A DNA stretch of 64,000 bases from a virus. The notes under the pieces are model-generated. The model had not been told where the DNA came from. It saw nothing but the letters and a program-made list of their open reading frames with translations, and did not search any database. The stretch lies in IMG/VR virus record IMGVR_UViG_3300045988_154248; one strand, written 5' to 3'. Below, one piece after another: positions 30,075 through 46,278 of this stretch. How positions within the stretch are numbered: the stretch's first letter is position 1; each line of letters begins with the position of its first letter. The translations under genes were made by a program, and so were the position numbers.

Positions 30075-30100
30075 AATAATATATGAAAATACATTCCTAT

Positions 30101-30461: not shown

Positions 30462-31451
30462 CATGTAAAAAATGGAGGTAAAATTATTAACGATCAAAAT
30501 TTAAAATCAATTCAAATTTCTATACCAAAAGATATACTTCACTCTTCTGCTTTTTCAAATTATGAAATTGCAGCGTACTGTTTTTTAAAAACTGTAGTGA
30601 CTGTCACATACACAACAGAACATTGTATATCTTATTCTCAGGCCAGCTATTATCTAACTGGATCTACAAAATATTCTAAACGATTCCCTGTATATATAAA
30701 AAACGGAATAGATAGACTTATTCAAAAAGGAATTATTATCCAAAAAGGAGTCGCTCAAAAAGAATATATTTTAGACTGTTCTTGCTTATGGGATGATACA
30801 AAAGATGCTCCGTTTGTTATTATTGATTTTTTTGAAATAAGAAAAATATTTCAAATAACAGACTGTAATAATTTTCAATTGCTTAGATATTTTTCAATTC
30901 TTATTGGTACGATCAGCTCTTCTATCGATGTGTGGCTCGATTCATTAGAACACAAAAGTCGTGTCGTTGGCAATATGACGATCGAATATCTGTCCGATTT
31001 ATCTGGAATTTCCATAAGAAGTATAAAAGAATATAATCGCGTTTTGGAGAAAAATCAGTTGATCTATATTTTTCGCCAAGATGATTTTTTACTATCACCT
31101 GATGAAAAAAATATTTCTCGTATGACAAACGTGTATGGTCGGCCTGCAGATAAATTATACATTGATTCTTATGCTGGATCACAGAAAAAAGAAAAGAAAT
31201 CTTACAAATGGATTAATAGTGAAGTTGAAAATGCGAATCGTAAACGTAAGCTGGCCCAAATGTATAACCAGATTGCAAAGGGTAAGGGTCAAAAATACTC
31301 TTTGGAAGAAATTCAGCAGGTATATGATTATATTCATTCTGAAAATAGCAAATATAAAGCTATGTATAAAGAGAATAAATACGAGGAGTACTTAACAAAA
31401 CAAAGAGATGAAACTGTTTTTGAAAAATTGAATTTAAAGAAAGAAGGATAA
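30456..31451 (+). CDS. putative replication initiation/organizer-type protein (function tentative)
   Basis: 331-aa ORF directly after the iteron-like repeats. The TTG at 30456 lacks an SD, whereas GGAGG at 30474 is followed 7 nt later by in-frame ATT at 30486. Confidence 0.5.
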   Translation: MHHVKNGGKIINDQNLKSIQISIPKDILHSSAFSNYEIAAYCFLKTVVTVTYTTEHCISYSQASYYLTGSTKYSKRFPVYIKNGIDRLIQKGIIIQKGVAQKEYILDCSCLWDDTKDAPFVIIDFFEIRKIFQITDCNNFQLLRYFSILIGTISSSIDVWLDSLEHKSRVVGNMTIEYLSDLSGISIRSIKEYNRVLEKNQLIYIFRQDDFLLSPDEKNISRMTNVYGRPADKLYIDSYAGSQKKEKKSYKWINSEVENANRKRKLAQMYNQIAKGKGQKYSLEEIQQVYDYIHSENSKYKAMYKENKYEEYLTKQRDETVFEKLNLKKEG

Positions 31452-31452
31452 A

Positions 31453-32610
31453 ATGTCAGATACTAAACATTATTTAAAATTACTACTCACGAATATTCAT
31501 AAAAAATATTCACTAAAAGATACCATTGATAAAAACGAATATTCTTTTACTATGATGAAACTAAGTCAAAACAACATAACTCCGCAAGAGGCTTTAATGT
31601 GTTATTTAGATCAAGAATCGTCAATTCTCGACCCATCGAATGAAGTGTTGGACAATACAATTTCTTTATTGAATTATCTTTTATCTTATATTACTGCAAA
31701 TTTTAATATAAAAACCATTGCAGGTTGTTACAAAATTACGAATAGAGAAACTGGTGAAATATACATTGGAGAAACAGTCAATATGTTTGCAAGGTTCTCG
31801 CAACATATCAGTATGTTGTATAACGGTACACATCATTGCATAGCTCTTCAAGAATCATTTAATAAAAACAAAGACATTGACCGTTTTTCTTTTAAGCCTA
31901 TTTTCTTTTTTGAAACATCCTATTACAAAGGCAGAGCAGTAACAAAAACAAGAACACTATATTTAGAAGCTGCATATTATTTAACTTATCGTTATAAAAA
32001 ATATGTTCTTTATAATACGAAAAATCCATTTTTAGAACTTAAAAATAATGAAAAGAAAACTTTTGATAATTACGAAGTCATCTATAAAGATGTTTTACAG
32101 ATGATATATGACGATCCTGACAAAATTTTATCAGAAAATTTAAAAGAAAAAGTTAGAAAAAATTTGAATGAAAAGGGAATTCATGAAACGCCTGAGACAA
32201 AACAAAAAAAGAAACATAGTCATTCAAAAAGCAGAGAATATATTGGTGTTGATACGGAAAATGGAACATATGAATATAACAATAAAACATATCCACTGTG
32301 TCCTGGTGAAAAATATAGTTTTACGAGTTTGACTGAATCACTTTGTGATAATGGAATTCTACTTTCAAGAGAAGAACATGATTATTTGTTATTCAAAAAG
32401 ACATTGGTGTACGAAAATCTATTAAATGTGGATAACAGCAATAGGTTTTTTGCCAGGGAATCTTCTTTAACTGACGGATATTTAGAATTAAAGCATTTTA
32501 AAACATGCAATTCTGATTTATATAGATATCAAATAACAGAAAAAGGTAAAGATAGAATTTTAGAAATTATCAATCAGTATGGAAAAGATTACTTTAAAAG
32601 ACAAGATTAG
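31453..32610 (+). CDS. GIY-YIG homing endonuclease-like protein
   Basis: [28 protein letters not shown]...LQESF...R..YLEAAY is the GIY-YIG motif set. Confidence 0.75.
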
Positions 32611-32612
32611 CA

Positions 32613-32885
32613 ATGGAGAATAATGATAAAGTACATCTCTCAACAATTCATAGAGCAAAAGGGTTGGAATATCCAATCGTGTTCATTGTTGGATTGAATG
32701 ATGGACTGCTCCCACATGCAAAAAGTGACAATCTCGATGATGAACGCAGGTTATTATATGTCGGAATTACAAGAGCAGAGAATGAATTATATCTCTCTTC
32801 TACTGCATCATACAATGATAATCTTATGACTCCTAGCCCGTTCATTGATGAACTTGGAGATAGCGTTAAAAAGATGAAGTGTTAA
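32613..32885 (+). CDS. stand-alone SF1 (UvrD/PcrA-type) helicase C-terminal fragment
   Basis: [19 protein letters not shown]...[18 protein letters not shown] matches helicase motifs V-VI. No upstream helicase core is present in the window. Confidence 0.7.
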
Positions 32886-32989
32886 TGAATGTTTAGAGAA
32901 TATAAAATTAGGAACTATTAATCATCCCTATAGTCAAGGAGTGATAAAAATGTATTTAAAAATTATGAAAATCAAAGGAGATACTAATT

Positions 32990-33235
32990 ATGAAAGAGAA
33001 CACAAGATTTTGCACCAGAAGTTTAAGAGATAATACAAGATTTGGAGGAGTAATTCAGTTTACAGAACTTTCTCCATATCCGAATTCTACTACCCTATCA
33101 CATGGATCGCACTTCGCAGAAAAGATTATTGCAGACAGAAAGTTTGATGAACAGTGTCATCGAAATATTATTCAAACACAAAAATTAAAAGCAAAACAGT
33201 CCACAGTAAAGGAAGTGGATGAGTTTGTTTACTAA
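32990..33235 (+). CDS. hypothetical protein
   Basis: 81-aa ORF with AAAGGAG 9 nt upstream. Confidence 0.45.
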   Translation: MKENTRFCTRSLRDNTRFGGVIQFTELSPYPNSTTLSHGSHFAEKIIADRKFDEQCHRNIIQTQKLKAKQSTVKEVDEFVY

Positions 33236-33659
33236 AACTGATCGTAGATATTTATCTAAAGCGAGACAGGCTGCAGATATTTCTGATTATAAAAACGTAC
33301 ATATCGGTTGTGTGGCAGTATACAAAGGAAATATTGTTGGTATTGGTTGTAATACTAATAAAACTCATCCAGTACAGAAATATTATAACAAATATAGAAA
33401 TACTGACGTTGATCAGGAAACACTTCTTCCTAAAATACATGCGGAAATTAGCTGTATCAATTCCATCCGACATCTGGATATAGATTTTTCCAAAGTAAAA
33501 TTATATATATATCGAAAACGAAATGATAAACCTTATGGTATGTCTAGGCCATGTCCGTCATGTATGGCTGCCATCAAGGATTTAGGCATAAAACACATTT
33601 ATTATACTACAAATGAAGGCTTTGCTTATGAATGTGTAACACAGGAGGATTTAGTATGA
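33219..33659 (+). CDS. dCMP/CMP-type zinc deaminase
   Basis: HAEISCI...PCPSCMAAI is the H-A-E ... PCxxC zinc-deaminase signature. Confidence 0.8.
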   Translation: MSLFTKTDRRYLSKARQAADISDYKNVHIGCVAVYKGNIVGIGCNTNKTHPVQKYYNKYRNTDVDQETLLPKIHAEISCINSIRHLDIDFSKVKLYIYRKRNDKPYGMSRPCPSCMAAIKDLGIKHIYYTTNEGFAYECVTQEDLV

Positions 33660-34060
33660 ATATTAATACAAATATTATAGATTTTGTATGGAATTTTAAA
33701 AATTTTAAACTTAATGATTTTGGATTAGATCCTGAATATAACATGTTATGTGCGCCAGTTTGTGAATGCGGATGTGGTGAGAAGATGAATGTTTTACTTG
33801 AAAGTGATGATGACATCTATGATTTTTGTTATGAGCTTGTAGATACTCAAGATTGCAATTATTGTGTTGCTTTTGCAATCAATGAAAAGAATGAAATGCT
33901 TGGTGCAATTAAATATGATGGTGAAATTCATTGTATTAAATTGAAAAACATTTCTGAAGACTATCTTCAAGTTGGTGGCATGTTTAATGATTTAGAGCTA
34001 CATCAGTATGGAATTATTGTCTGTGTTGGCGATGGAGAATATAAGATTTTGGAGGAATAA
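33656..34060 (+). CDS. hypothetical Cys-rich protein
   Basis: ORF track gives 33632..34060. ATG at 33656 follows GGAGG. Confidence 0.55.
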   Translation: MNINTNIIDFVWNFKNFKLNDFGLDPEYNMLCAPVCECGCGEKMNVLLESDDDIYDFCYELVDTQDCNYCVAFAINEKNEMLGAIKYDGEIHCIKLKNISEDYLQVGGMFNDLELHQYGIIVCVGDGEYKILEE

Positions 34061-34067
34061 AAAATAT

Positions 34068-36581
34068 ATGGCAGGTATTAATGTACCTCAGTATGAGATT
34101 TTTAAAATTGGAACAGATAAATTAAAATATTCTAAATGGAATTTGAATATTGATAAAAAAGAAGCATTTAAATACCAAGAATCTGTTTCATTATTTGAAG
34201 GTCAGCAATTTCGAATTATGGCAAAGAAAATCATGAAGAAAGCAAAATGGAAATGTGATTTTTCGAAACTTTTTATGCAAGTCGTTATTGATCAGAAAAC
34301 AGATTTTGCAAGAGCGACAAACAGAAAAGGTGTTACTGTAAATGGTATAAATTATAGACGTTTTGTTGGAACAACAGGTGGTTTGAAGAATAATACTCTT
34401 CTATTTTGTAATTCGGAATACATAGATAAACTAAATGAATTATGTGAGTGTAGGCGAAACAAAGAAGTGCCATTAGTTCCAGCAAAATATGAAGCATATA
34501 AAGCGTTAACTTGCTCTGCATCGCAGCCAATTTGCGAACCACATGGAATTTTAGTTGTAAAAGATTGCATTACTCAATACGAAGATGATGTAATTTCTCT
34601 CGATAGTGGAGTTGGAGACGGTGAGCCAATTCGTGAAAAAAAACATAAAGTAATGGAAAATACAGTGTCTGATGGGTTTAATTTATGTACTATTGGATAC
34701 ATGCAAAGAGTTGCTGAATCTCTTGGATTAGATTATACTCCTGCAGGTGTATGTTTGCGAAATGCCTGGTTAAAAGGTATGCTCTATCCTTTCCCAATTA
34801 TAGAGTTTATTGAAAAATATAATGGTGGGAATTATTTTATCAAGGATATTTGGGGTAATGTGCAGGACATTCGAGAGTGTGAAATGATTCTCACGGAATC
34901 TTCATTGAAATTATGGTCGGCATATGAAAGTATTGACGAATATATTGCAGCATATAGAGAGTGTGGATATGAATTTGCAGTTACGAAAATTTCTCCTCAT
35001 ATCTTAGATGAAGAACGTGAATTAAATTATCAATATTTACAGTCTTATGAATTCACTGATGATGATATTAAAGAATTGTGTAATCCTACCATTCAGCATT
35101 TAAAAGATGCGATGTGTGGAAACTACGAATCCACTATTAAATTTCTTGGAATTAATGAAAATACAGACGTGAATTCATGGCAACGTGCATTATATACAAG
35201 CCAATATATGCTTGGCGATCCGTATATTATCGATTCAACTCATAGGTATATTAAGAAGAAAATAAATGATGCAAAAATTGGTAAATTAATTGTAAATGGT
35301 AATTATCAAATTGCTAGTGGTGATCCGTTTGCGTTAATGCAATCAATTTGTGGCCTAGAAATAACTGGCTTATTAAAAGCTGATCAATGCTACTCAAAAT
35401 TCTGGATTGACAAATCTGTAGATTCTGTAGTTATCTTTCGAAGTCCAATGACTTCTCACAATAATATTCGAAAATGCAATGTAATTTCAAATGAAGAGTG
35501 TTTGTATTGGTATCAGTATATGGATACTATTATGATTATCAATGCATGGGATTCTTTTTGTGTGGCGGAAAACGGTTGTGATTGGGATGGCGATCTTTTA
35601 TATTCAACCAATAATAAAGTCTTACTTCGTTGTTTTAGAAAACTATTAGCAATTGAATGTGTTCAAAGAAAAGCCAATAAGATTATTATTAATGAAAAAG
35701 AAGTCAAAAAAACAAATAAAAACGGCATGGGAAATCAGGTTGGACAGATTACAAACCGTGTTACTTCGATGATCGAAGTTTTGTCACGATTTGAAGAGGG
35801 GTCTAATGAATATAATGATTTATTATATCGTATTGAATGTGGACAGCTTCACCAACAGGATGAATTGGATAAAATCAAAGGAATTATTGCAAAGCCAATG
35901 GCAAAATATTGGTATAATCTTGGTGCTTGTAAAGATAATCATTATTTACAATCAATTTGTGCTTATCGAAAACCGTATTTTATGATCTATATTTATGATG
36001 AGATTAAACGTAAGTATAAGAACTATATCAAGGAAAGCGAGATAAAATGCGCTGCATTATATGATTGCAGTATTCAAGATTTATATAGTAAAAAGGATAA
36101 TTTAACTGACGAACAAAAAGATTTTTTATTTTGGTATGAGTATAAAATGCCGGTTGGCATTGGAGCTTGTGCAATGAATAAAATCTGCTGGTATGTTGAA
36201 AGTCAATTAGACGGATATAAATCACAATTACATCATGATTCTACTTTTGATTACAATCGTTTAAAAGTTAAACGTCGATGTACAGAAGAACATCGGAAAG
36301 CTTTACATGATCTTGAACAAGAGTATCGTGAATGTATTAAGGAGTATAAAGCAAACAGGTCTTCCGACAAAGAACAATCAAATAATAACAGAAAATATTT
36401 ATGCGAAAAATTTAGGCAAGCGGCTATTGAACTTTGCCCAAATGATGAAGAGCGCATGAATATTATCCTTGATATCACCTATGGTTATAAGGGAAATCGA
36501 CAGTTTTGTTGGGACTGTATTGGTGACTTGCTTATTAAACGTTTGGAAGAAATGGAGAATGAAAATGTATATACTGAATGA
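34068..36581 (+). CDS. YonO/RdRP-like single-subunit RNA polymerase (double-psi beta-barrel, DxDGD)
   Basis: 837 aa. FRSPMTSHNNIRKC...AENGCDWDGDLLYS matches the R-x-P ... DxDGD catalytic arrangement of YonO and eukaryotic-type RdRPs. ATG at 34068 follows GGAGG. Confidence 0.65.
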   Translation: MAGINVPQYEIFKIGTDKLKYSKWNLNIDKKEAFKYQESVSLFEGQQFRIMAKKIMKKAKWKCDFSKLFMQVVIDQKTDFARATNRKGVTVNGINYRRFVGTTGGLKNNTLLFCNSEYIDKLNELCECRRNKEVPLVPAKYEAYKALTCSASQPICEPHGILVVKDCITQYEDDVISLDSGVGDGEPIREKKHKVMENTVSDGFNLCTIGYMQRVAESLGLDYTPAGVCLRNAWLKGMLYPFPIIEFIEKYNGGNYFIKDIWGNVQDIRECEMILTESSLKLWSAYESIDEYIAAYRECGYEFAVTKISPHILDEERELNYQYLQSYEFTDDDIKELCNPTIQHLKDAMCGNYESTIKFLGINENTDVNSWQRALYTSQYMLGDPYIIDSTHRYIKKKINDAKIGKLIVNGNYQIASGDPFALMQSICGLEITGLLKADQCYSKFWIDKSVDSVVIFRSPMTSHNNIRKCNVISNEECLYWYQYMDTIMIINAWDSFCVAENGCDWDGDLLYSTNNKVLLRCFRKLLAIECVQRKANKIIINEKEVKKTNKNGMGNQVGQITNRVTSMIEVLSRFEEGSNEYNDLLYRIECGQLHQQDELDKIKGIIAKPMAKYWYNLGACKDNHYLQSICAYRKPYFMIYIYDEIKRKYKNYIKESEIKCAALYDCSIQDLYSKKDNLTDEQKDFLFWYEYKMPVGIGACAMNKICWYVESQLDGYKSQLHHDSTFDYNRLKVKRRCTEEHRKALHDLEQEYRECIKEYKANRSSDKEQSNNNRKYLCEKFRQAAIELCPNDEERMNIILDITYGYKGNRQFCWDCIGDLLIKRLEEMENENVYTE

Positions 36582-37410
36582 GAAGGATTATATTAGATCT
36601 GTTCTGGCTTCAAAAAAGAAGCCAGAAGATCTATCTATTGGCTATTTGATTGTTTTAACAGCAAAATATTATTATATTAACAATGAAAATATAGAAAAAG
36701 AACAGTTAGTTGAAATCGTTACAAATAAGATTTCTGATATGATGATTTATGGCTATCAGGAATATAAATGGATTCGCAAAATTGAGAAAGTATGTGATAT
36801 TTTTTATGATAACGAGAAAGATAAAAAGTCAAATAAAAAGGAAGAAATTAACGAAAAGGACAAACAACTCAGAGAATTAAAATATGTTCCAATTTATCAA
36901 GAAGAAATTGATCTTATTAACTCACTTCCTAATGACAGACAAAAGAAATTTATGTTTACTTTATATGCCGTAGCTCGTTATATGGATTCTGATGGATGGA
37001 TTAATAAAAAGGATCTTAGAGGATTGTCTGAAATTTTTAAATTGGCAAATATTACTCTTACGTCGGATAAAAAAAACGAACTGCTTCATGAGTTATATAA
37101 AAATGGTTATATTTATTTTGGTAAACAAATAGATAACCTGAATATTAGAGTTAATTTAGCTGAATCTGATAATGTGGTATATAAGATAAAAGAATTTTCT
37201 AATTTAGGGAATCAATATATCGGTAACTTTAAAAAAGGATATAGACAATGTGCAAATCCATCATGTGGAAAAAGAGTTAAAATGACTGCACCAAATAGGA
37301 TTTATTGTAGTAAGTGTGCCGAAGAAATTGATCGAGAAAAAGCAAAAGATCGTATGAAGAAATTGAGAAACCATAAAATGTTCGAAGCTGACAGTATGAA
37401 AAATGCCTAA
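36565..37410 (+). CDS. hypothetical protein with C-terminal zinc ribbon
   Basis: ORF track gives 36469..37410. ATG at 36565. Contains CANPSCGKRVKMTAPNRIYCSKC. Start overlaps the RNAP stop. Confidence 0.6.
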   Translation: MYILNEKDYIRSVLASKKKPEDLSIGYLIVLTAKYYYINNENIEKEQLVEIVTNKISDMMIYGYQEYKWIRKIEKVCDIFYDNEKDKKSNKKEEINEKDKQLRELKYVPIYQEEIDLINSLPNDRQKKFMFTLYAVARYMDSDGWINKKDLRGLSEIFKLANITLTSDKKNELLHELYKNGYIYFGKQIDNLNIRVNLAESDNVVYKIKEFSNLGNQYIGNFKKGYRQCANPSCGKRVKMTAPNRIYCSKCAEEIDREKAKDRMKKLRNHKMFEADSMKNA

Positions 37411-37526
37411 TTTTGTTGGGATTTTTGTTTCTTTTTCAAAAAAAATTGTTTTTCTTTGAAGGGAATAAATAATCATTTTTTATTTCTGACTATACCGGAA
37501 GAAACAAAACCTGTAGTCTATTCAAC

Positions 37527-37552
37527 GGGCGGTTACTCTCTGCCGCCCTTTC
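37527..37552 (+). terminator. terminator-like hairpin
   Basis: GGGCGG...CCGCCC stem followed by TTTC. Confidence 0.45.
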
Positions 37553-37616
37553 AAAAGGTTAATTCTTTATGTTAATTTCATAATTATCTCCTCTTTCTTT
37601 TATGTTTTATTTTTTA

Positions 37617-38585
37617 CTGGCAGATATAATAGTTTGCCAGTATTATCGCGGGATATGCTGGATCGGTTCCACGAGAGATTCATGTTCTCTAAAGCTACGT
37701 TCGACTCGTAGTCCCGCAACTCGTGGCATAGCACAGATAGATGCGTGTGAGCGTATTAAAGGCGAATTTACAACTCGTCGCCATGAAAATTGGTCAATCT
37801 ATGCAAAACTAACATCCCAGGCACTCAAAAAGTGCTGTTTCATACCGGTAAAACGAGTAAGTCCTGTGTGGAAATAGTGTCAGGAAATAGGGAGTAACAA
37901 GGTGATTCAGGGGCAACCGCTGAGAATCATTTTTCTGCGCAACAGAATAGCTCACGCGAACCTATGAAGATATGATGGGGAATTAGGAGGATATATAGTG
38001 CGAGTCCTTATTAGACAAGTGCGATGTCCATTTGGGTAAGTGAATTGGTAGAGATGCCAAATTAGCTTATGCAGGATGCGAGTAGGGATTATAACCGAAA
38101 GCTACGAAGGCGTGATGGATTTTGTTATCCAAAAGATAACGAAACATCTGGTGCAGCGCGTCTTCTGTATTCAATTTCGTTTCTATTAATTAGTATATTC
38201 AGGAAGAATGTAAAAATTGGTTTGATGCAAAAGGTAAACAAATTATAAAGCGAAAGTCTGTACCTCTGTATGGTGTAAGCAGCCAAAATGTGTAATCTCT
38301 TTTGAGGTAATACACACACTGAAAGATACGCAATATCTGGATGTGTTAAGCGGATTCTGCACAGTTCTCTTAGCGGAGATTTATAGCACGGCAGTGTTAA
38401 TGGAACGATGAAACTTGAGTAGTCATACAGCAAAGAAGATAAGCCTCTTCTCAAAAGGCGGTTGTGGAAGATACTATATGTGTGCGCAAGCAACATATAG
38501 TGGATAACCGAAGAAAAAATAATGTCGGTAAAGGTTTCTGAAAATACGTATAATCTCAGCGTATTTATTTTGCTACTTCTGTAGC
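37617..38585 (+). ncRNA. candidate giant structured ncRNA (GOLLD/ROOL-class context)
   Basis: About 1 kb without credible ORFs and GC-enriched. Hairpins at 37617-37640, 37695-37711 (T-loop-like TTCGACT), 38124-38140 and 38474-38500 (with an internal GCAA tetraloop). Directly abuts a tRNA in a phage. Confidence 0.4.
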
Positions 38586-38590
38586 ATTAT

Positions 38591-38664
38591 TGCGGTGTAG
38601 CTCAGTTGGTGAGAGCATTCGGCTTATATCCGAACGGTCGTGGGTTCGAGTCCTACCACCCCAA
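38591..38664 (+). tRNA. tRNA-Ile (anticodon TAT)
   Basis: Cloverleaf read by hand. D arm GCTC/GAGC, anticodon arm TTCGG-CTTATAT-CCGAA, T arm GTGGG-TTCGAGT-CCTAC. One C-C mismatch in the acceptor stem. No encoded CCA. Confidence 0.7.
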
Positions 38665-38705
38665 CTATTTATCTTTGTTGTATACAAAGAAATTTAAAAC
38701 GAAAG

Positions 38706-38894
38706 GTGTGTATTAATATAGTACTCATTACTAAACAAGAGAAAGAATATTTAGTAAAGCATGGAGTTCCTTATGCGGAAGGCGGCGTATCCCATTCGGA
38801 ATCATGTCATAAACGTAAAAAATTCTATTTGTGTGAGACTTCTCATAATATGAGACTACTCGAAAATTATAGAAAAAAATTATATCATCGCTAA
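38706..38894 (+). CDS. small basic protein (start uncertain)
   Basis: Frame ...VLITKQEKEYLVKHGVPYAEGG...KRKKFYLCE... GAAAGGTG at 38701 is followed 7 nt later by in-frame ATA at 38718. GTG at 38706 overlaps the SD. Confidence 0.45.
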   Translation: MCINIVLITKQEKEYLVKHGVPYAEGGVSHSESCHKRKKFYLCETSHNMRLLENYRKKLYHR

Positions 38895-38927
38895 TGCGAA
38901 ATTTAATGAGAAAGGTGGTTTGGAGCC

Positions 38928-40139
38928 ATCAAAACTAAATTTTATGATACTAACGCTCTTCTATTACTACAGGATAAAATTTTAGAAGACAGTTTTTACA
39001 TTAGTTCTACTACTCTAGAAGAACTAGAAAACATTAAAACAAGTTCTCGAAAAGATGAAGAGACAAAATACAAAGCAAGAAAATTATTACATATTTTAGA
39101 TGAAAATGATGATAAATATAAAGTTGTTATTACCACCAAAGATATTATCTCAATTATAGATGCTTTTGGATTAGAAAACACTCCTGATAATCAGATTTGT
39201 GCATGTGCATATTCTACTCCTGATATTTTATTTATTACAAACGATATTTCTTGTAAAACCATTGCAAAATGGATTTTTGGATTAGATGTTTCCAGTATTT
39301 CTACTATTCAAGAAGATCTATATAAAGGATATAGAGATATTACATTGTCTGAAAATGATATGGCATATTTCTATGAACATTTAAATGAAAATGTTTTCAA
39401 TTTATTAACAAATGAATATGTTATTATTCGAAATGCAGACAATGAAGTTGTAGATAAATTAAAATGGGATGGCGGAATGTATCAGACTATTAGAAATAAA
39501 CCATTTAAATCTAATATGTTTGGTACATTAAAACCATTAGACGACATTCAATCATTCGCTATGGATTCGATTAATACAAATGACATTACCGTATTGTATG
39601 GTAAAGCTGGTAGTGGTAAAACTACTCTTCCGCTTAATTATATCATGCAAGAAATCGAAAAAGGAAAATATAAAAAATGCTATATGGTTTACTCTTATGA
39701 ACCATTAAAAGGAGCAAAAACTCTCGGCTACGAAAAGGGTGATCATGTCACAAAATTGATCTATTCTGCATCTATCGGAAATATTTTAGCATCAAAATTT
39801 GGCGATCTACAGCAAGTTGAATACATGCTTGATCGTGGAATGCTAGATATTATTCCAACTGCAAATATTCGAGGTGTCGAATTTGAATCTGATAGCATCT
39901 GTATGGTTACAGAAAGTCAGAATTTGGATGTTTATACTCTAAAAACAATTATTCAACGTTGTAAATCTGGATGTAAACAAATATATGAGGGTGACATTAT
40001 TGAACAAAAGGATACAAACGTCCAAAATGTTGGTATTAATAGACTGATTGACGTATTCAAAGGACATAAAAGCTTTGGGTGTGTCAAACTTAAAAATAAT
40101 TACAGATCTGAATTGAGCGAATTAGCAGATTTGATGTAA
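38928..40139 (+). CDS. PIN-domain plus PhoH-like ATPase (PhoH2 architecture)
   Basis: PhoH Walker A is LYGKAGSGKTT. The upstream 139 codons encode a PIN-like domain (KFYDTNALL...EELE...TNDIS) with no ATG, GTG or TTG. ATC at 38928 sits 9 nt after GAAAGGTGG. Confidence 0.7.
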   Translation: MKTKFYDTNALLLLQDKILEDSFYISSTTLEELENIKTSSRKDEETKYKARKLLHILDENDDKYKVVITTKDIISIIDAFGLENTPDNQICACAYSTPDILFITNDISCKTIAKWIFGLDVSSISTIQEDLYKGYRDITLSENDMAYFYEHLNENVFNLLTNEYVIIRNADNEVVDKLKWDGGMYQTIRNKPFKSNMFGTLKPLDDIQSFAMDSINTNDITVLYGKAGSGKTTLPLNYIMQEIEKGKYKKCYMVYSYEPLKGAKTLGYEKGDHVTKLIYSASIGNILASKFGDLQQVEYMLDRGMLDIIPTANIRGVEFESDSICMVTESQNLDVYTLKTIIQRCKSGCKQIYEGDIIEQKDTNVQNVGINRLIDVFKGHKSFGCVKLKNNYRSELSELADLM

Positions 40140-40157
40140 GAAAGGATTTATATATTA

Positions 40158-40337
40158 GTGATTAAAAAATTTGATAAAGAATACAGTACTCAATACGTAC
40201 CTGAGATGAAATATCTTCAATCAAAAGGTATTGAATATTCTTTTGTAAAAGATATTCAAGGAGTGACGACATATAAATATACGAAGACACCAGAGTTATT
40301 TTTGGCTTTGGTGTCTTTTTATATGGAAAATAAATAA
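40158..40337 (+). CDS. small protein (59 aa)
   Basis: GTG start. VIKKFDKEYSTQYVPEMKYLQSKGIEYSFVKDIQGVTTYKYTKTPELFLAL... Pattern resembles 58169..58345. Confidence 0.4.
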   Translation: MIKKFDKEYSTQYVPEMKYLQSKGIEYSFVKDIQGVTTYKYTKTPELFLALVSFYMENK

Positions 40338-40370
40338 AAATACGAAAGGATAAATAATAGGTGATAAATA

Positions 40371-41360
40371 ATGAGCCAAAAAAGAATTTATTCAAAAGAT
40401 GAAACTGAATTAATGCTTGAAATGTACAAAGATGGAGAAACATATTCGGACATAGGGAAAGCTTTACATACTAAAGCACAAAAAGTTTCAAAATATTTAA
40501 AAGAACTGGGGTATGGCGTCAGGCCACATAACCAATTAAAAAATCATGAATATTTATCTGCATCACGAAAAAACTCTTTAAATGAAAATTTCTTTAAAAC
40601 TATTGATACAGAATCAAAGGCCTATTGGCTTGGATTTTTATATGCAGATGGATATATATGTAAAAAGTATGATAAATCGGGGCATGAAAAAGGTGGATCA
40701 GTAGAGTTAACTTTAAAATCAGATGATAAATATCATATTCAAAATTTTTTAAGTGATATACAATCTACTGCGCCGATTGCAGATAGGAAAATAAAATTAA
40801 ATGGTAAAGAATATTTTGCAAACAGAGCTTGTATAACGTCTATTAAAATGGTGAATGATTTAATTAGTCATGGATGCGTAGAAAATAAATCTTTGATTTT
40901 AGAACCACCTACCTCTGTTCCTGATGGTTTAATTTCGCACTTTATACGCGGATACTTTGATGGCGATGGATGTGTATGTTTTTATCCTGAAAACTATTCA
41001 TATACGTATAGTATATTGGGTACTAAAGCATTTCTTGAGTTTGTTGCAACCAAAGCACAATTACCGTCTTTTAATATTATCTCTTTTGAACACAAAAAAT
41101 GTTATGAATTAAGAACTCATTCCAAAAAATCAGCAGAATTATTTCATAATTACATTTATAAAGACAAAACAATTTATCTCGAAAGAAAATATCAAAAATC
41201 TCTTGCGATGATGAAGTGGTGTTTTATGGAAGATAATAGAACTGAAACACAGAAAATAGCAGATTTATTAGACGATATGTTATTTTTTGATGATAGTAAT
41301 ATAGAAAATTTTATAAAGTATGTCAAGAACACCCGTGACTTTAGTCATGGGATGAATTGA
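40371..41360 (+). CDS. LAGLIDADG homing endonuclease (double-motif)
   Basis: WLGFLYADGYI and FIRGYFDGDGCV motifs. Confidence 0.85.
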   Translation: MSQKRIYSKDETELMLEMYKDGETYSDIGKALHTKAQKVSKYLKELGYGVRPHNQLKNHEYLSASRKNSLNENFFKTIDTESKAYWLGFLYADGYICKKYDKSGHEKGGSVELTLKSDDKYHIQNFLSDIQSTAPIADRKIKLNGKEYFANRACITSIKMVNDLISHGCVENKSLILEPPTSVPDGLISHFIRGYFDGDGCVCFYPENYSYTYSILGTKAFLEFVATKAQLPSFNIISFEHKKCYELRTHSKKSAELFHNYIYKDKTIYLERKYQKSLAMMKWCFMEDNRTETQKIADLLDDMLFFDDSNIENFIKYVKNTRDFSHGMN

Positions 41361-41453
41361 CATACATATGTTAAACAGAAATACGCTGTAATATATTGAA
41401 AACACTAGATTTTGTAATATACATATGTTATCATAGTCATGAGGTGATAATAT

Positions 41454-41855
41454 ATGGAAGTGACTCATGGTCGTGGATATGTATATTCGATACAATATCA
41501 TATTGTTTGGTGTGTTAAATACAGACACAAAATAATTACAGAAAAAATAGAGAATAGATTAATAGAGATACTTAATAAAATAGCTGATGATAATGGATTT
41601 CAAATATTAGAATGTAATACAGATAAAGACCATATTCATCTTCTCGTTAATTGTTCTCCGCAACATTATATCCCAGACATGATAAAAGCATTAAAAGGCG
41701 TGTCAGCAAGGTTACTTATGAAAGAATTTGGAGAAGAATTAAAAAGAAAATTATGGGGTGGTCACTTGTGGAATCCATCATATTTCGTGGCAACCGTATC
41801 AGAAAATACAGAAGAACAAATTAGAAAATATATTCAAAATCAGAAAAGAAAGTGA
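41454..41855 (+). CDS. tnpA: IS200/IS605 Y1 (HUH) transposase TnpA
   Basis: [10 protein letters not shown]...HIHLLV...Y motif pattern. 133 aa. Confidence 0.85.
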
Positions 41856-41865
41856 GGTGAAGTCA

Positions 41866-42969
41866 GTGGAAAAAGCTTATAAGTACAGGATTTATCCAAA
41901 TAAAAAGCAGAAAGAAATAATTGCAAAGACTTTTGGGTGTTGCAGATTTATATATAATAAGTATCTTGCAAAGCGAATTGAAATGTATGAACAGAATAAA
42001 GAAACATTTTCATATGTTCAATGTGCAAATGATATGAAGAAACTAAAATCAGAGTTAGAATGGCTTAAAGAAGTCGATTCTACTGCTCTTCAATCTTCAC
42101 TTAAAGATTTAGATTCAGCTTATCAAAAATTCTTTAAAGAACACACAGGATATCCTAAGTTCAAATCAAAGAAAACACATAGATTTTCTTATAAATCAAA
42201 GTGTGTAAATGGCAATATTCAGTATTGTGATAAATATATTAAGTTACCTAAACTTGGAATGGTAAAAACGAAAAACAAGTTAGTACCAAAAGGAATGATT
42301 CTTAATGCTACTGTGTCACAAGAACCAAGTGGCAAATATTATGTGTCAATTTGTTGTACTGATATTGATATTCAACCACTAAATAAAACTGGTAATAACA
42401 TTGGTATTGATTTAGGCATTAAAGAATTTTGTATTACAAGTGATGGAGAATTAATTCCAAATCCACATTACTTAAAGAAGTCTTTAGATAAACTTGCTAA
42501 GTTACAAAGAGAATTATCTCGAAAATCAAAAGGTAGTTCTAATCGTAATAAAGCAAGAATAAAGGTTGCAAGACTTCAGGAACATATTGCAAATCAGAGA
42601 AAAGATTTCTTGCATAAGTTATCTACTGAAACAATCAGAAGTAATGATATTGTATGTATCGAAGACCTTCAAGTAAAGAATATGATTAAAAATCATAAAC
42701 TTGCACAGTCTATCGCAGATGTATCATGGTCTGAATTTGTAAGACAACTTGAATATAAAGCAAATTGGTATGGTAAACAAGTTGTGAAAGTAGATAAATT
42801 CTATGCAAGTTCTCAAACTTGTAATGTATGTGGGTATATAAATAAGGATACAAAAAATCTTTCAGTAAGAGAATGGGAATGTCCTTGTTGTCATACACAT
42901 CATGACAGAGATATGAACGCAGCCATCAATATTCTTAATGAAGGATTGAGAATATTAGAAGTGGCATAG
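41866..42969 (+). CDS. tnpB: TnpB (OrfB) RNA-guided nuclease family protein
   Basis: GTG start giving [15 protein letters not shown]. RuvC-like IGIDLG...IEDL. Zinc finger CNVCGY...CPCCH. The ORF-track start at 41758 overlaps tnpA. Confidence 0.85.
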
Positions 42970-43071
42970 ACGAATAAAGAACGGTAGGAACTATCGGGAT
43001 AGCTTGGTAAATATCTTTTCAGTAGAAATGAGTTCCCAAGAATCTCGTGGCTTTAGCCATGAGAGGTTCAA
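42930..43071 (+). ncRNA. putative omega/reRNA of TnpB (3' end of tnpB through right end)
   Basis: Assignment rests on position, relative to known TnpB systems, and on the terminal hairpin. The 5' boundary is not determinable by eye. Confidence 0.35.
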
Positions 43072-43150
43072 ATGTGATTCATATAAAACAGAACGAAGTG
43101 AAACTGCAGCTATGGCAGATTTATTAGATTAATCCTTTTATGGAAATATT

Positions 43151-43828
43151 ATGAAAGCACGAGGCATATTGCCAATGGAGAAAAAGGAACTCAAGCAAAA
43201 ATTAGAAACAACATATTTAGACATTGCAATTCCAAGTAATGTAGAAAATTTACAGTTGCCAGATCCTACGCTATTACAATTTTATAAAAATTACGATGAT
43301 AGAATTATTTGGATTGATGATGAAATTACAACCATGACTTTGGAATATGCAAAGATGATTATGCAGTGGAATTCAGAAGATAAGAAAAATAATATTCCAG
43401 CAGAAGAACGTAAGCCAATTAAAGTAATCTTCTTTAGTCCTGGTGGCGATTTAGAGGTAAATAACTGTTTGGTTGATACAATTCAACTAAGTCAAACAAA
43501 AGTTATTGGAATCAATGTTGGTATGGCTGCATCAAGTGGATGCTTTATTTATTTAGCATGTCATGAGCGTTTTACATTTCCAACGGCAGAATTCCTCATC
43601 CATAAGGGAGCTGGTCAATTTGCTGGGACATACAATGATGTAGTTGCAGCAATTTTAAATTATCAACGACAAATCGAAGAACTTGGTGACTTTGTTTTAT
43701 CTAGAACAAAGATTCCAGAAGATGTATTTAATGAAAACTTTGAAAATGACTGGTATTTATCTGCGAAAGAAGCTATTAAATATGGTGTTGCAGATAAAAT
43801 TATTACAAGTTTAGACGAAATCATTTAA
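43151..43828 (+). CDS. ClpP-family serine protease
   Basis: FFSPGGDL...GMAASSGCFIYLA...FLIHKGAG resembles the ClpP Ser and His motifs. An alternative ATG start lies at 43175. Confidence 0.75.
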   Translation: MKARGILPMEKKELKQKLETTYLDIAIPSNVENLQLPDPTLLQFYKNYDDRIIWIDDEITTMTLEYAKMIMQWNSEDKKNNIPAEERKPIKVIFFSPGGDLEVNNCLVDTIQLSQTKVIGINVGMAASSGCFIYLACHERFTFPTAEFLIHKGAGQFAGTYNDVVAAILNYQRQIEELGDFVLSRTKIPEDVFNENFENDWYLSAKEAIKYGVADKIITSLDEII

Positions 43829-43855
43829 GGAAGAGTTCAATACTCTTCTATTTTT
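43829..43855 (+). terminator. intrinsic terminator
   Basis: GAAGAGT-TCAAT-ACTCTTC followed by TATTTTTA. Confidence 0.6.
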
Positions 43856-43892
43856 ATACAAATTTTTAGGATTAAAAGGAGAATTATACGAT

Positions 43893-44096
43893 ATGGCAGC
43901 ATTTACTTATAAGAAAACATCGACAACTTCAATGAAAGTTACTGGTATTTTAAATCCACAAACTATGGTAATCAATGTTGACGGTGAAGATAAGCAACTT
44001 TCTACTCTTCTACGTGACTTCGCAGACCTACCAGTAGAAATTAATATTAAGGTCAAGGACGAGGAAGAACTGGATGAACCAGTTGATGTTGAGTAA
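43893..44096 (+). CDS. hypothetical acidic protein
   Basis: 67-aa ORF with AAAGGAG upstream. Confidence 0.5.
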   Translation: MAAFTYKKTSTTSMKVTGILNPQTMVINVDGEDKQLSTLLRDFADLPVEINIKVKDEEELDEPVDVE

Positions 44097-44131
44097 GAAG
44101 GGAGTGATCTACTATTACTTCCTATACAAGA

Positions 44132-45316
44132 TTGCCTGGTGAAACAGATGATCAACTTATATATAGAGTTACTAAAGATAAGGATATAATCGGTTCATGG
44201 AATGATGTAGCTGATGTACTCAATCAGTTACTTGGAACTCATTATGGAGAATCAAAATTTCGGAAGGATAAAGCGACATTTGATCGAATGCTGAATGCAA
44301 ATCGTGATATGTTTGTTGATTCTGATAAACAGTTGCAGGATATCCGGATCGCGCAAAGAGAATTAGAAAAAACTCGTAAGAAAATCCAAACAGAAAAACT
44401 AGAATATTCAAAATGGCTACGCGAAGATGCGAGAGCTGAAATGGTTACAGAAAAAATTTGCAATGCAGTTCGTGAATTAAAAACATTGGATATTCCGGAA
44501 TACATTCCACCTATACATGATCATAAATCATATCTTCTGTGTTTAGCTGATGCTCATTATGGGATTGAATTTGAGATTAAAGATTTGTTTGGAAATATTA
44601 TCAATGAATATAGTCCAGAGATCTTCGAAACACGTATGTGGGATCTTTTAAATAAAGTTGTTCAGATTGTGAATAAAGAACATATTACAGAATTAAATGT
44701 TTGGGAGTTAGGCGATGGACTGCAGGGTGTCTTGCGTTTAAATTCCCAACTTATGAAGCTTAGATATGGTATTATCGACTCTTCTATTCTGTATGCCAAT
44801 TTCCTTGCAAATTGGTTAAATGAACTTAGTAAATATGTACGAATTAAATTTCAAATGGTGATTGATTCAAATCATAATCAGCTTAGAATTTGCGGTGCGC
44901 CGAAAAATGCATTCGTAGATGAAAATATGAGTAAATCAATGCTTGTATTAATTAAAGCACGGCTTAAAGACAATAAGAATATTGTAATTCTTGAAAATCC
45001 AACTGGAATGGATTATTCCGTACTAAGCACATATGCAGTATTAGGTATTCATGGCGAAGTTCCGAACATTAAAACCGCAATTGATGAATATGCGCGAGCT
45101 TATCAAACACATTTTGATTATTTGATTGGCGCTCATTGCCATCATAAAACAAATGTGGAAGTTGGAATTGATGCAGAATGTCTTACTGTCAGATCTATTA
45201 TTGGCGTCGATCCATATGGGATGTCTCTAAGGAAAACATCTAACCCTGGCGCGAGTTTATTTGAGTTCGAGCTTGGACAAGGGCTTACAACACAACATTC
45301 AATTAAGCTTAATTAA
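44132..45316 (+). CDS. calcineurin-like metallophosphoesterase (Mre11/SbcD-like)
   Basis: ADAHYG, GDGLQG, DSNHNQ, GIHGE and GAHCHH motif series. The TTG at 44132 lacks an SD. In-frame ATT at 44114 sits 9 nt after GGAG. Confidence 0.7.
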   Translation: MPGETDDQLIYRVTKDKDIIGSWNDVADVLNQLLGTHYGESKFRKDKATFDRMLNANRDMFVDSDKQLQDIRIAQRELEKTRKKIQTEKLEYSKWLREDARAEMVTEKICNAVRELKTLDIPEYIPPIHDHKSYLLCLADAHYGIEFEIKDLFGNIINEYSPEIFETRMWDLLNKVVQIVNKEHITELNVWELGDGLQGVLRLNSQLMKLRYGIIDSSILYANFLANWLNELSKYVRIKFQMVIDSNHNQLRICGAPKNAFVDENMSKSMLVLIKARLKDNKNIVILENPTGMDYSVLSTYAVLGIHGEVPNIKTAIDEYARAYQTHFDYLIGAHCHHKTNVEVGIDAECLTVRSIIGVDPYGMSLRKTSNPGASLFEFELGQGLTTQHSIKLN

Positions 45317-45504
45317 TGGAGAATACAATTATGGGAGAAATTGACGAAAATCCAGTGTTGGATTATGACGAACTTAATTCATACATTCAAGGTCGAACTG
45401 GTTTAGATTATGACACGGTAGCTAATGTACTGGATCTTGAAACAGAATACATGATCAAAGTAGGAATTATTGAATCACAAAATCCTGCTGAAGTAGAAAA
45501 ATAA
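45316..45504 (+). CDS. hypothetical acidic protein
   Basis: 62-aa ORF with a TAATG overlap with the upstream gene. Confidence 0.5.
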   Translation: MENTIMGEIDENPVLDYDELNSYIQGRTGLDYDTVANVLDLETEYMIKVGIIESQNPAEVEK

Positions 45505-45984
45505 GTACAGATACATCTGTACTTACATATAAAGAAGGCCATCGGCTACCTAAAATTTCTTTCTTTATGTTGCTATACAACAAATGTACAAACTCGTGGA
45601 AGCCGATGATCAAAAATACAGAAGAAGGACTGACGGCTATCTCGATTTCTAGAAGTGAACTTTATCAGAGAATTCAATCCTGTCATCAGGATGCAGGTAT
45701 CATAACCTAACGGTTACGTTCGTGCCGCCAATACTGTCTCACTCGTTCCCATTTATTATAACGGAAACGTGAGTAGCTATTGACATACACTGGTGTTTCT
45801 GGTGAATAAAACATCGCCATACTAAATCACCTGCCTTCCGTTGATAAACTTTCTATCATTGGAAAAACCGGCAGTCCAAGAATACGGAAGATGCTCCGTA
45901 CTTATAAAGAATAACATATTATAAAAAATTAGACAAGCACTTCATAAGTGCAAAATTTATTTGAACAAAAAGGAGAATATTAAA

Positions 45985-46260: not shown

Positions 46261-46278
46261 TAGATCGGTGGTGATTAT

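What the first reader, a model, noticed from the sequence alone, without database searches (positions are those of the whole stretch)
37617..38664. About 1 kb ORF-free, hairpin-dense, GC-enriched block abutting tRNA-Ile: candidate giant ornate ncRNA
Almost 1 kb lies between the zinc-ribbon gene (ends 37410) and tRNA-Ile (38591) with no credible coding potential. The only ORFs there (37602..37877 +, 38125..38496 -) translate to Arg/Cys/Leu-rich junk without an SD.

The tract is visibly richer in G+C than the phage and packed with local helices:
- CTGGCA/TGCCAG at 37617-37640.
- A tRNA-like sub-element at 37669-37726, made of the CCACG/CGTGG closing stem, AGAGA-TTCATGT-TCTCT, and a T-arm-like CTACG-TTCGACT-CGTAG.
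- GTTATC/GATAAC at 38124-38140.
- CTATATGT/ACATATAG at 38474-38500, enclosing a GC-GCAA-GC tetraloop.

The GNRA loop reads correctly only on the plus strand. Very large structured RNAs of unknown function (the GOLLD and ROOL classes) are known to sit in Firmicutes prophages next to tRNA genes. That is the same context seen here. Whether this is a member of a known class or a new one cannot be decided by eye.
Basis: partly seen in the sequence, partly recalled or inferred. Interest (0 to 1): 0.8.

Follow-up and report, generated by a model that had tools for sequence, protein, structure and literature searches.

The report
GOLLD giant RNA in gut phage

Summary
Rfam's GOLLD model (RF02032) matches window 38105-38562 (+) end to end at 193.1 bits (gathering score 150, E 7e-53).

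That model covers only the conserved 3' domain. The 380 nt upstream (37723-38104) is the clade-specific 5' domain.
- In 27 homologues from large gut-phage contigs it folds into 15 helices.
- 32 of its 84 predicted pairs show compensatory changes.
- 99.7% of cells are paired, against 35-44% in slid controls.

The two ORFs in the tract are broken in relatives that are 91-95% identical.

The RNA is about 840-870 nt. Sister clades carry a normal tRNA-Met there. tRNA-Ile(TAT) (38591-38665) lies downstream.

The L21a and L21b hairpin loops are conserved while their stems covary, and the A/U-rich linker is hypervariable. Both match the features behind the cryo-EM homo-oligomeric cages of other GOLLDs.

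The host element is a large phage of Bacillota type, and more than 60 relatives come mostly from human-gut metagenomes.

Verdict: a new member of a known family. Biological function remains unknown, as for all GOLLDs.

The parts
37527..37552 (+). Terminator-like hairpin (GGGCGG-10 nt-CCGCCC, then TTTC) ending the upstream zinc-ribbon gene unit. It marks the left boundary of the RNA locus.
   Evidence: Read directly from the sequence. Conserved in window-like relatives (alignment). The terminator scan missed it because the loop is longer than 8 nt. Function is inferred.
37617..37646 (+). Hairpin CTGGCA/TGCCAG enclosing a perfect TATAAT (37625-37630), plus a second -10-like TATTAT (37641-46). 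Candidate promoter region for the tRNA-like/GOLLD/tRNA unit.
   Evidence: Sequence. The promoter scan lists CTGGCA-18-TATTAT, but the number of such sites does not exceed shuffles. A stem at the equivalent place in group D shows one compensatory change (L017 against L023). Promoter function is inferred, not shown.
37648..37718 (+). Degenerate tRNA-Met(CAT)-like cloverleaf. It has a 7-bp acceptor stem GCGGGAT/GTCCCGC, a weak D arm, an anticodon arm AGAGA-TTCATGT-TCTCT and a T arm with loop TTCGACT. It is a flanking pseudo-tRNA or atypical tRNA, possibly a processing handle.
   Evidence: The MFE fold is a cloverleaf, but no better than shuffles (z = -1.24). ARAGORN calls it only at a relaxed threshold (-ps80). 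The Rfam tRNA model does not find it at E<=10. ARAGORN calls a normal tRNA-Met(CAT) gene upstream of the GOLLD in sister clades: at the same place in group C (gap about 5 nt), and about 55 nt upstream in groups B and E.
37723..38104 (+). GOLLD 5' domain (clade-specific 'cap' domain). At least 15 helices, including an invariant GNRA hairpin (GG-GCAA-CC, loop 37913-37916) and the junction motif AGUAGGGAU (38081-38089).
   Evidence: Alignment A2 and RNAalifold give 84 pairs, 32 with changes on both sides. 99.7% of cells are paired against 35-44% when partners are slid. Homology across clades begins at TGGC (37723). Models R1 and R2 built from it give weak hits, in correct register, in distant GOLLDs.
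38105..38562 (+). GOLLD 3' domain, the universally conserved part that Rfam models.
   Evidence: Rfam RF02032: 193.1 bits (gathering score 150), E 7e-53, model positions 1-416 of 416. 47 of 109 predicted pairs show compensatory changes in 12 homologues.
38165..38250 (+). Variable A/U-rich linker inside the 3' domain (J13/15-type region). It carries no embedded tRNA in this copy.
   Evidence: Unstructured, low-conservation insert in the Rfam alignment. Hypervariable in length and sequence between clades. No tRNA is called there. Other GOLLD loci carry a tRNA at this place.
38366..38399 (+). Twin hairpins matching P21a (TCTC-TTAGCG-GAGA, 38366-79) and P21b (TAGCAC-GGCA-GTGTTA, 38384-99). Their loops are conserved and contain a self-complementary GC.
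   Evidence: Stems covary: TCTC/GAGA, TTTC/GAAA, GTTC/GAAC for P21a; CAC/GTG, CAA/TTG, CGT/ACG, CAT/ATG for P21b. Loop UUAGCG is identical in every sequence but one (L005, UUAGCA). Loop GGCR is kept in all, and its G-C dinucleotide never varies. env-38 GOLLD has ..CGGCAG.. in L21b, and GC kissing contacts B8 and B9 join the two half-cages (PMC12286853).
38572..38585 (+). Small 3' hairpin GCTAC-TTCT-GTAGC between the GOLLD end and tRNA-Ile. It looks like a weak remnant of the strong intrinsic terminator found at this place in sister clades C and D.
   Evidence: Sequence and MFE fold. It aligns with the terminator hairpin and T-run of groups C and D (A3 columns about 527-560).
38591..38665 (+). 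tRNA-Ile(TAT), immediately downstream and on the same strand.
   Evidence: Rfam tRNA 65.0 bits. ARAGORN. Same-strand tRNAs (Ile, Arg, Pro, Lys or Thr) start 14-30 nt (groups A and B) or about 65 nt (groups C and D) after the GOLLD end in 31 of the 35 homologues checked. They do so within 100 nt in 28 of 82 diverse GOLLD loci.

Best explanation
[quoted passage not shown] It is on the plus strand of a large Bacillota-type gut phage.

Shown here:
- The 3' domain (38105-38562) is a bona fide family member.
- The 5' 380 nt (37723-38104) is a conserved, covarying structured domain.
- The tract is non-coding.
- It sits between a tRNA-Met-like cloverleaf and tRNA-Ile, on the same strand as all neighbouring genes.

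Inferred:
1. It is transcribed rightwards from the A/T-rich region at about 37600-37646, together with the flanking tRNA(-like) elements. Its ends are set by tRNA-processing enzymes: RNase Z or 3' trimming after the Met-like cloverleaf, and RNase P at the 5' end of tRNA-Ile. The weak hairpin at 38572-85 may help. Probability about 0.5.
2. By homology with the env-38 and S. agalactiae GOLLDs solved by cryo-EM, the two domains fold separately and copies join into a closed dihedral homo-oligomeric cage. It most likely resembles the 14-mer, because it is about 850 nt long and keeps both P21a and P21b. The 5' domains would form the caps, the 3' domains the rings, and the variable linker would face the interior. 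Probability about 0.7 for a multimer and about 0.4 for the exact stoichiometry.
3. It acts during lytic growth as part of the phage's tRNA/translation module, for example by caging or sequestering tRNAs, ribosomes or a host factor. Probability about 0.3. No GOLLD has an established function.
For: - Rfam GOLLD hit at 193.1 bits against a gathering score of 150, with the full-length model. The nearest phage-database homologue, MT835469, also scores 172.6 bits.
- 5' domain: 15 helices, 32 of 84 pairs compensatory, 99.7% of cells paired against at most 44% when slid.
- 3' domain: 47 of 109 pairs compensatory.
- ORFs are not conserved and substitutions show no codon periodicity.
- Folding is strand-specific.
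- tRNAs flank the RNA on both sides across clades. 28 of 82 diverse GOLLDs have a tRNA within 100 nt downstream, mostly 6-19 nt.
- L21a and L21b loops are conserved over covarying stems, and the linker is hypervariable.
- Phage context.
- More than 60 homologues in IMG/VR and gut metagenomes.
- Cage formation, domain roles and the B8/B9 contacts come from PMC12286853. Dependence of stoichiometry on P21b and P11a-c comes from PMC12990946.
Against: - There are no expression data, so the transcript ends and the promoter are inferred. The promoter-like matches do not exceed the shuffled expectation.
- Sister clades C and D have a strong terminator between GOLLD and the next tRNA. Co-transcription with the downstream tRNA is therefore not universal.
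- The 5' domain shows no significant sequence similarity to env-38. Only weak, register-consistent CM hits link it to other GOLLDs. Transfer of the cap contacts and the stoichiometry is therefore uncertain.
- Covariation rests on about 4-5 independent clades.
- Function is unknown for the whole family.
Confidence: 0.93

Rival explanations
1. The tract is only a long spacer or leader in a phage tRNA operon. Its hairpins would be incidental or serve only as processing and termination signals, and it would not be a functional RNA in its own right.
For: It lies between a tRNA-like element and a tRNA. Promoter and terminator matches do not exceed chance.
Against: The Rfam family match is full-length and far above threshold. 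79 base pairs across both domains carry compensatory changes, with almost no broken pairs. Loops are conserved over covarying stems. The RNA is conserved in more than 60 phage contigs at only 60-70% identity.
Confidence: 0.02
2. The region encodes small proteins, from ORF 37602-37877 (+) and/or ORF 38125-38496 (-).
For: Both ORFs are open in the window and in its nearest relatives.
Against: In relatives 91-95% identical (L013, L030, L045), and in all relatives around 60-70% identical, the ORFs carry 4-12 stops or frameshifts. Substitutions are spread evenly over the three codon positions (83/94/90, 94/81/94). The longest stop-free stretches elsewhere are about 30-70 aa in every frame.
Confidence: 0.01
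3. It belongs to a different large structured RNA class: ROOL, a group I or II intron, RNase P RNA, tmRNA, HEARO/omega RNA or raiA.
For: ROOL shares the genomic context of phages and tRNA arrays (PMC5737381). An IS200/IS605 TnpB gene lies 3 kb downstream.
Against: No such family reaches its gathering score anywhere in the window. None appears at E<=10 in 37400-38120. The GOLLD match is specific and complete.
Confidence: 0.01
4. It is a GOLLD, but one with a new architecture. The 5' domain would be a clade-specific invention, and the degenerate tRNA-Met would be retained as an integral, covalently attached module. That would give a cage with different stoichiometry or cargo from the solved examples.
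For: The 5' domain has no blastn or nhmmer similarity to 79 other IMG/VR GOLLD loci or to env-38. The Met-like cloverleaf keeps its shape and its CAT anticodon while falling below tRNA thresholds. One relative (L110) has a compensatory change in the anticodon stem.
Against: Covariance models of two 5' sub-regions hit four distant GOLLDs at exactly the expected offset from the 3' domain. The junction motif GUAGGGAU is shared with env-38. This argues for divergence of a common 5' domain. In one close relative (L113) the acceptor stem of the cloverleaf is broken, as expected for decay. Variable 5' domains are already a known property of the family (PMC12286853).
Confidence: 0.2

Closest known systems
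GOLLD RNA env-38 (marine metagenome; cryo-EM 14-mer, PDB 9MEE; PMC12286853)
   Same: Same Rfam family. Similar length (833 nt against about 840-870 nt). Two-domain layout with a variable internal linker. It lies next to a Met-tRNA. Both P21a and P21b hairpins are present, and the L21b loop contains the same GGCA. The junction motif GUAGGGAU lies just 5' of the 3' domain. The 5' domain has a conserved GNRA hairpin (GAAA there, GCAA/GCGA here).
   Different: The sequence is barely alignable outside the motifs. The 5'-domain helices cannot be matched one to one with the tools at hand. The L21a loop is UUAGCG here against CGCAA there. Multimerisation is untested for this RNA. The source is a gut Bacillota-type phage rather than a marine sample.
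Streptococcus agalactiae GOLLD (cryo-EM 12-mer for the full length, 10-mer for the 3' domain alone; PDB 9L0R and 9LMF; reviewed in PMC12990946)
   Same: Same family, Bacillota host range, prophage/tRNA context, and cage-forming 3' domain.
   Different: The S. agalactiae RNA is shorter (about 700 nt) and lacks P9, P11a-c and P21b. The window RNA is about 850 nt and has a P21b-like hairpin, so it resembles the env-38 layout more.
Mycobacterial tRNA-array GOLLDs (PMC6582537; Morgado 2020, cited in PMC12990946)
   Same: tRNA genes lie both upstream and downstream. A pseudo-tRNA is associated with the GOLLD gene. tRNA-Ile(TAT) occurs in the same horizontally acquired arrays.
   Different: There the (pseudo-)tRNA is embedded in the linker J13/15. 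Here the linker has no tRNA, and the degenerate tRNA sits immediately 5' of the RNA.
ROOL RNA (Rfam RF03087)
   Same: Large ornate phage-associated RNA near tRNAs that forms RNA-only cages.
   Different: Unrelated sequence and secondary structure. No Rfam hit in the window.

Membership tests
GOLLD RNA (Rfam RF02032) | Match to the curated covariance model of the conserved 3' domain at or above the gathering score | tested here: met
   193.1 bits against 150, E 7e-53, model 1-416 of 416, window 38105-38562 (+).
GOLLD RNA (Rfam RF02032) | 3' domain secondary structure maintained by compensatory substitutions in homologues | tested here: met
   12 homologues. 47 of 109 RNAalifold pairs have changes on both sides, and few are broken.
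GOLLD RNA (Rfam RF02032) | Giant size (about 700 to over 800 nt) with a structured but less conserved 5' domain | tested here: met
   5' domain 37723-38104: 15 helices, 32 of 84 pairs compensatory, 99.7% of cells paired against at most 44% when slid. Total length is about 840 nt. Weak CM hits in correct register in distant GOLLDs.
GOLLD RNA (Rfam RF02032) | Variable, poorly conserved linker inside the RNA (J13/15), sometimes holding a tRNA | tested here: met
   38165-38250 is A/U-rich and hypervariable in length and sequence between clades. It has no tRNA here. 5 of 10 other loci tested have an embedded tRNA.
GOLLD RNA (Rfam RF02032) | Non-coding | tested here: met
   ORFs are broken in close and distant relatives, and substitutions show no codon periodicity.
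GOLLD RNA (Rfam RF02032) | Phage or prophage location, close to tRNA genes | tested here: met
   Terminase, portal and PhoH. Integrase. tRNA-Ile 28 nt downstream, a tRNA-Met-like element 4 nt upstream, and four more tRNAs in the window.
GOLLD RNA (Rfam RF02032) | Self-assembly into a dihedral homo-oligomeric cage through kissing loops (L21a, L21b, L20-J13/15) and A-minor bridges | tested here: inconclusive
   P21a- and P21b-like hairpins are present. Their loops contain GC and are conserved over covarying stems, which fits contacts B8 and B9. A dinucleotide is weak evidence, and assembly itself cannot be tested with these tools.
GOLLD RNA (Rfam RF02032) | Expression rising during phage lytic growth | not testable with these tools
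   No transcript data are available. This is known only for the L. brevis prophage (cited in PMC12286853).
tRNA (for the upstream element 37648-37718) | Scores as a tRNA with the Rfam tRNA model or with default ARAGORN | tested here: not met
   No Rfam tRNA hit at E<=10. Default ARAGORN gives nothing. It is called tRNA-Met(CAT) only at -ps80. It is therefore filed as a degenerate tRNA-like element, not as a tRNA gene.
ROOL, group I/II introns, RNase P, tmRNA, HEARO, raiA | Match to the respective Rfam model | tested here: not met
   None reaches its gathering score in the whole window. None appears at E<=10 in 37400-38120.

The most novel reading that the evidence does not exclude
This human-gut phage clade (more than 60 contigs) may carry a GOLLD variant with two unusual properties. 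Its diverged 5' cap domain would give a cage of different size or stoichiometry from the solved 10-, 12- and 14-mers. Its maturation would depend on a tRNA-Met gene that has decayed into a pure processing handle, tying GOLLD biogenesis directly to RNase P and RNase Z.
Probability: 0.2. Interest if true: 0.45.

Novelty: new member of a known kind. Interest (0 to 1): 0.25.

Why it matters
GOLLD is one of the largest and most elaborate bacterial or phage RNAs, and its function is still unknown. In 2025 it was shown to build RNA-only nanocages larger than a ribosome.

This locus adds three things:
1. A well-populated clade from human-gut phages, with more than 60 relatives at 60-100% identity.
2. 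A covariation-supported secondary structure for the 5' domain, which Rfam does not model.
3. A clean genomic layout, tRNA-Met(-like) / GOLLD / tRNA, that makes the idea of excision by tRNA-processing enzymes directly testable.

It does not reveal a new kind of element or explain what GOLLD does.

Tried and rejected
- **Megablast against phages.** Window 28000-48000 gave no match, so the phage itself is not in GenBank phage records.
- **blastn 'distant' against phages.** The locus found only MT835469, plus tRNA-only hits.
- **Genome-contig scan with the 18-mer 5' motif.** It returned 27 loci, about the number I estimate by chance for that database size. Only L048, a 5.6-kb contig binned as Elusimicrobiales, is a true homologue. 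No host could be assigned this way.
- **Alignment to env-38.** The sequence was taken from the paper's supplement. The OCR copy has 816 of 833 nt, so residue numbers cannot be transferred. There was no significant local similarity apart from GTAGGGAT.
- **nhmmer with the 5'-domain profile.** Against 88 diverse GOLLD loci it found only 9 further members of the same clade.
- **Covariance models R1 and R2 with default filters.** They gave only four weak hits outside the clade. I did not rerun them with filters off.
- **Papers.** Weinberg 2009 (PMC4140389) and Morgado 2020 (PMC7549688) are not held.
It can form, but it competes with the cloverleaf. In group C the same 3' sequence (ACTCG) is simply the trailer of a normal tRNA-Met, so I treat the cloverleaf as the ancestral reading.
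- **The tRNA fragment as an attP core.** I considered this and gave it low weight. The cloverleaf is complete rather than a 3' fragment, and the integrase gene is 10 kb away.

Full report
**1. The observation**

tRNA-Ile(TAT) lies at 38591-38665. G+C is 0.40 over 37723-38562, against 0.29-0.31 in the flanking genes and 0.334 for the window.

The two ORFs in the tract are 37602-37877 (+) and 38125-38496 (-). They are interrupted by 4-12 stops or frameshifts in homologues. This includes relatives only 5-9% divergent. Substitutions fall equally on the three codon positions.

The plus strand of 37717-38590 folds more stably than dinucleotide shuffles (z = -2.5). The minus strand does not (z = -0.07).

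**2. What it is**

A gathering-threshold Rfam scan of the whole window gives one non-tRNA hit. It is GOLLD (RF02032) at 38105-38562 (+), with 193.1 bits against a gathering score of 150, E 7e-53 and all 416 model positions aligned. Nothing else reaches threshold: no ROOL, raiA, HEARO, introns, RNase P or tmRNA. A permissive scan of 37400-38120 finds only noise.

The Rfam model covers only the universally conserved 3' half of GOLLD. The family is described as a conserved 3' region plus a less conserved 5' region, often over 800 nt in total (PMC12286853). The question then became whether the 490 nt upstream of the hit belong to the RNA.

**3. Homologues and the 5' domain**

The GenBank phage set holds one homologue, MT835469. 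It is a 176-kb record of 'Bacteriophage sp.' from human faeces. It is 67% identical across window 37723-38568 and scores 172.6 bits for GOLLD.

Further scans gave:
- 44 loci from an exact-motif scan of IMG/VR with a 5'-domain 18-mer (window 37910-37927), on contigs of 14-209 kb (about three-quarters over 80 kb).
- 23 loci from a 3' motif.
- About 42 true homologues from a metagenome scan, several labelled human-gut assemblies and two of them over 99% identical to the window.
- Nine more from a separate subclade.

After removing duplicates there are four or five clades, 60-70% identical to each other.

Homology across clades begins sharply at TGGC (37723) and runs to the Rfam 3' end. On 27 sequences RNAalifold predicts 84 pairs in 15 helices for 37723-38104. 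Of these, 32 pairs change on both sides while staying paired.

In the independent count, 99.7% of cells are standard pairs, against 35-44% when the 3' partners are slid by 1-3 columns. There are 32 double-change pairs, against 0-4 in the slid controls. The 3' domain shows 47 of 109 compensatory pairs in 12 sequences.

The caveat is that the compensatory events come from only a handful of independent lineages.

The RNA is therefore about 840 nt (37723-38562). It could be up to about 870 nt if it extends to the tRNA-Ile processing site.

**4. Is the 5' domain a new invention?**

Sequence-level methods find nothing outside the clade. This holds for blastn, for nhmmer against 88 diverse IMG/VR GOLLD loci and for alignment to env-38.

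I built two covariance models from the clade: R1 (37884-37968) and R2 (37987-38103). They give weak hits of 17.8-29.3 bits in four distant loci. Those four loci are bona fide GOLLDs by Rfam.

All four hits fall at the expected offset from the 3' end of the RNA:

| Model | Hit start/end, nt upstream of the GOLLD 3' end | Window value |
|---|---|---|
| R1 | 679/588 and 691/603 | 676/592 |
| R2 | 582/466 and 568/459 | 573/457 |

The R2 hits also abut the start of the Rfam match.

The junction motif GUAGGGAU occurs just upstream of the 3' domain in both the window and env-38. I read the 5' domain as a diverged form of the family's usual 5' domain, which is what the literature leads one to expect.

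**5. Flanks**

It has these parts:
- a perfect 7-bp acceptor stem (GCGGGAT/GTCCCGC);
- an anticodon arm with CAT;
- a canonical T loop (TTCGACT);
- a defective D arm.

This cloverleaf is the MFE fold. However, ARAGORN calls it only at a relaxed threshold, and the Rfam tRNA model misses it.

In clades B, C and E a normal tRNA-Met(CAT) gene lies upstream of the GOLLD: at the same place in clade C, and about 55 nt upstream in B and E. In clade D the element is equally degenerate, and two members read TGT instead of CAT. Among close relatives of the window:
- one has a compensatory change in the anticodon stem (L110);
- one has a broken acceptor stem (L113);
- one passes the default threshold (L092).

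It is therefore a decaying or atypical tRNA-Met flanking the RNA, not part of the GOLLD fold. env-38 also lies downstream of a Met-tRNA.

Downstream, a same-strand tRNA follows closely in most homologues of the clade: within 14-30 nt in groups A and B, about 65 nt in groups C and D, and not at all in group E. In 28 of 82 diverse GOLLD loci one follows within 100 nt, mostly 6-19 nt. Clades C and D insert a strong intrinsic terminator between GOLLD and that tRNA. The window keeps only a weak remnant, GCTAC-TTCT-GTAGC at 38572-85.

Upstream, a terminator-like hairpin (37527-52) closes the preceding gene. A TATAAT box lies at 37625-30, inside the CTGGCA/TGCCAG hairpin. Promoter-like matches do not exceed chance, so the transcription start is inferred only.

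**6. Features bearing on mechanism**

Cryo-EM showed that env-38 GOLLD forms a closed 14-mer with D7 symmetry. The 5' domains form the caps and the 3' domains the rings. A disordered variable linker lies inside. The two half-shells are joined by self-complementary kissing loops L21a (B8, G-C) and L21b (B9, G-C) (PMC12286853).

The S. agalactiae GOLLD lacks P21b and P11a-c, and forms a 12-mer (PMC12990946).

In the window both hairpins are present. The P21a stem covaries (TCTC/GAGA, TTTC/GAAA, GTTC/GAAC) under a loop UUAGCG that is identical in every sequence but one (L005, UUAGCA). The P21b stem covaries through four variants under a conserved GGCR loop. That loop is the same GGCA as in env-38. 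The linker 38165-38250 is hypervariable.

These patterns are what one expects if the loops make conserved tertiary or quaternary contacts. They do not prove assembly.

**7. Context**

All neighbouring genes are on the plus strand. The window encodes:
- PhoH;
- a LAGLIDADG endonuclease;
- an IS200/IS605 TnpA-TnpB pair;
- an integrase;
- a large terminase subunit;
- a portal protein.

The portal is 25-29% identical to those of SPbeta-like and other large siphophages of Bacillota. The host could not be assigned.

**8. Verdict**

This is a GOLLD RNA, a family known since 2009, in its typical phage and tRNA setting. It is a new member, and part of a sizeable gut-phage clade, of a known kind. The biological function remains unknown, as for the whole family.

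My best mechanistic reading has three parts. The probabilities are my own estimates:
- co-transcription with the flanking tRNA(-like) elements and excision by tRNA-processing enzymes (about 0.5);
- self-assembly into a cage of about 12-14 subunits (about 0.7 for a multimer);
- a role in the phage's translation/tRNA module during lytic growth (about 0.3).

Interest is modest because nothing here departs from what is known of the family.

Noticed in passing
window 41454-42969: A complete IS200/IS605-type element: TnpA (Y1_Tnp, 149 bits, 41454-41855) overlapping TnpB (OrfB_IS605 plus Cas12f1-like TNB, 41758-42969). It lies 3 kb downstream of GOLLD, next to a LAGLIDADG homing endonuclease (40371-41360). 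An omega-RNA would be expected 3' of tnpB, but I did not look for one.
   Followed up: partly
L012 (IMGVR_UViG_3300029431_000033), about 4499-4830: A truncated GOLLD. The tRNA-Met and the first ~317 nt of the 5' domain are intact. The sequence then switches to an unrelated coding region, and no 3' domain occurs in the 6.5 kb held. This looks like a deletion or recombination remnant.
   Followed up: partly
L124 5276-5693 and L140 5916-6334: Phage-encoded tmRNA genes (Rfam 73 bits) lie about 115-145 nt from very high-scoring GOLLDs (308-323 bits) on the opposite strand.
   Followed up: no
L218 2015-2086, L228 8233-8303, L144 4299-4370, L150 6368-6438, L148 4609-4678: tRNA genes are embedded inside the GOLLD 3' domain, in the linker, in 5 of 10 diverse IMG/VR GOLLD loci tested. 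This matches the literature. The window's linker has none.
   Followed up: partly
A3 columns about 527-560 (for example L003 705-760, L017 6200-6261): Sister clades C and D carry a strong intrinsic terminator (hairpin ...CTCATAC-TTCG-GTATGGG... followed by a T-run) between the GOLLD 3' end and the next tRNA. The window has only a 5-bp remnant of it at 38572-85.
   Followed up: partly
window 37935-37949 (A2 columns about 252-266): An extra small hairpin in the 5' domain that RNAalifold did not predict on A2, although it did on the sub-alignment A4. The stem is TCTG/CAGA in the window, TTGA/TCAA(G) in other clades and CCGG/CTGG in a third. The loop contains a conserved GCAA(A). It appears to covary.
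   Followed up: partly
window 46887-46960 and 51013-51316: Four further tRNA genes on the same strand: Trp(CCA), Tyr(GTA), Ser(TGA) and Leu(TAA). A tyrosine-type integrase (48107-49159) lies between them.
   Followed up: no
L048 (JAUNWB010000104.1, 5.6-kb contig of an 'Elusimicrobiales' MAG): This is the only true homologue of this GOLLD clade in the species-representative genome collection. It is probably a phage contig mis-binned into the MAG, so it is not usable as host evidence.
   Followed up: partly
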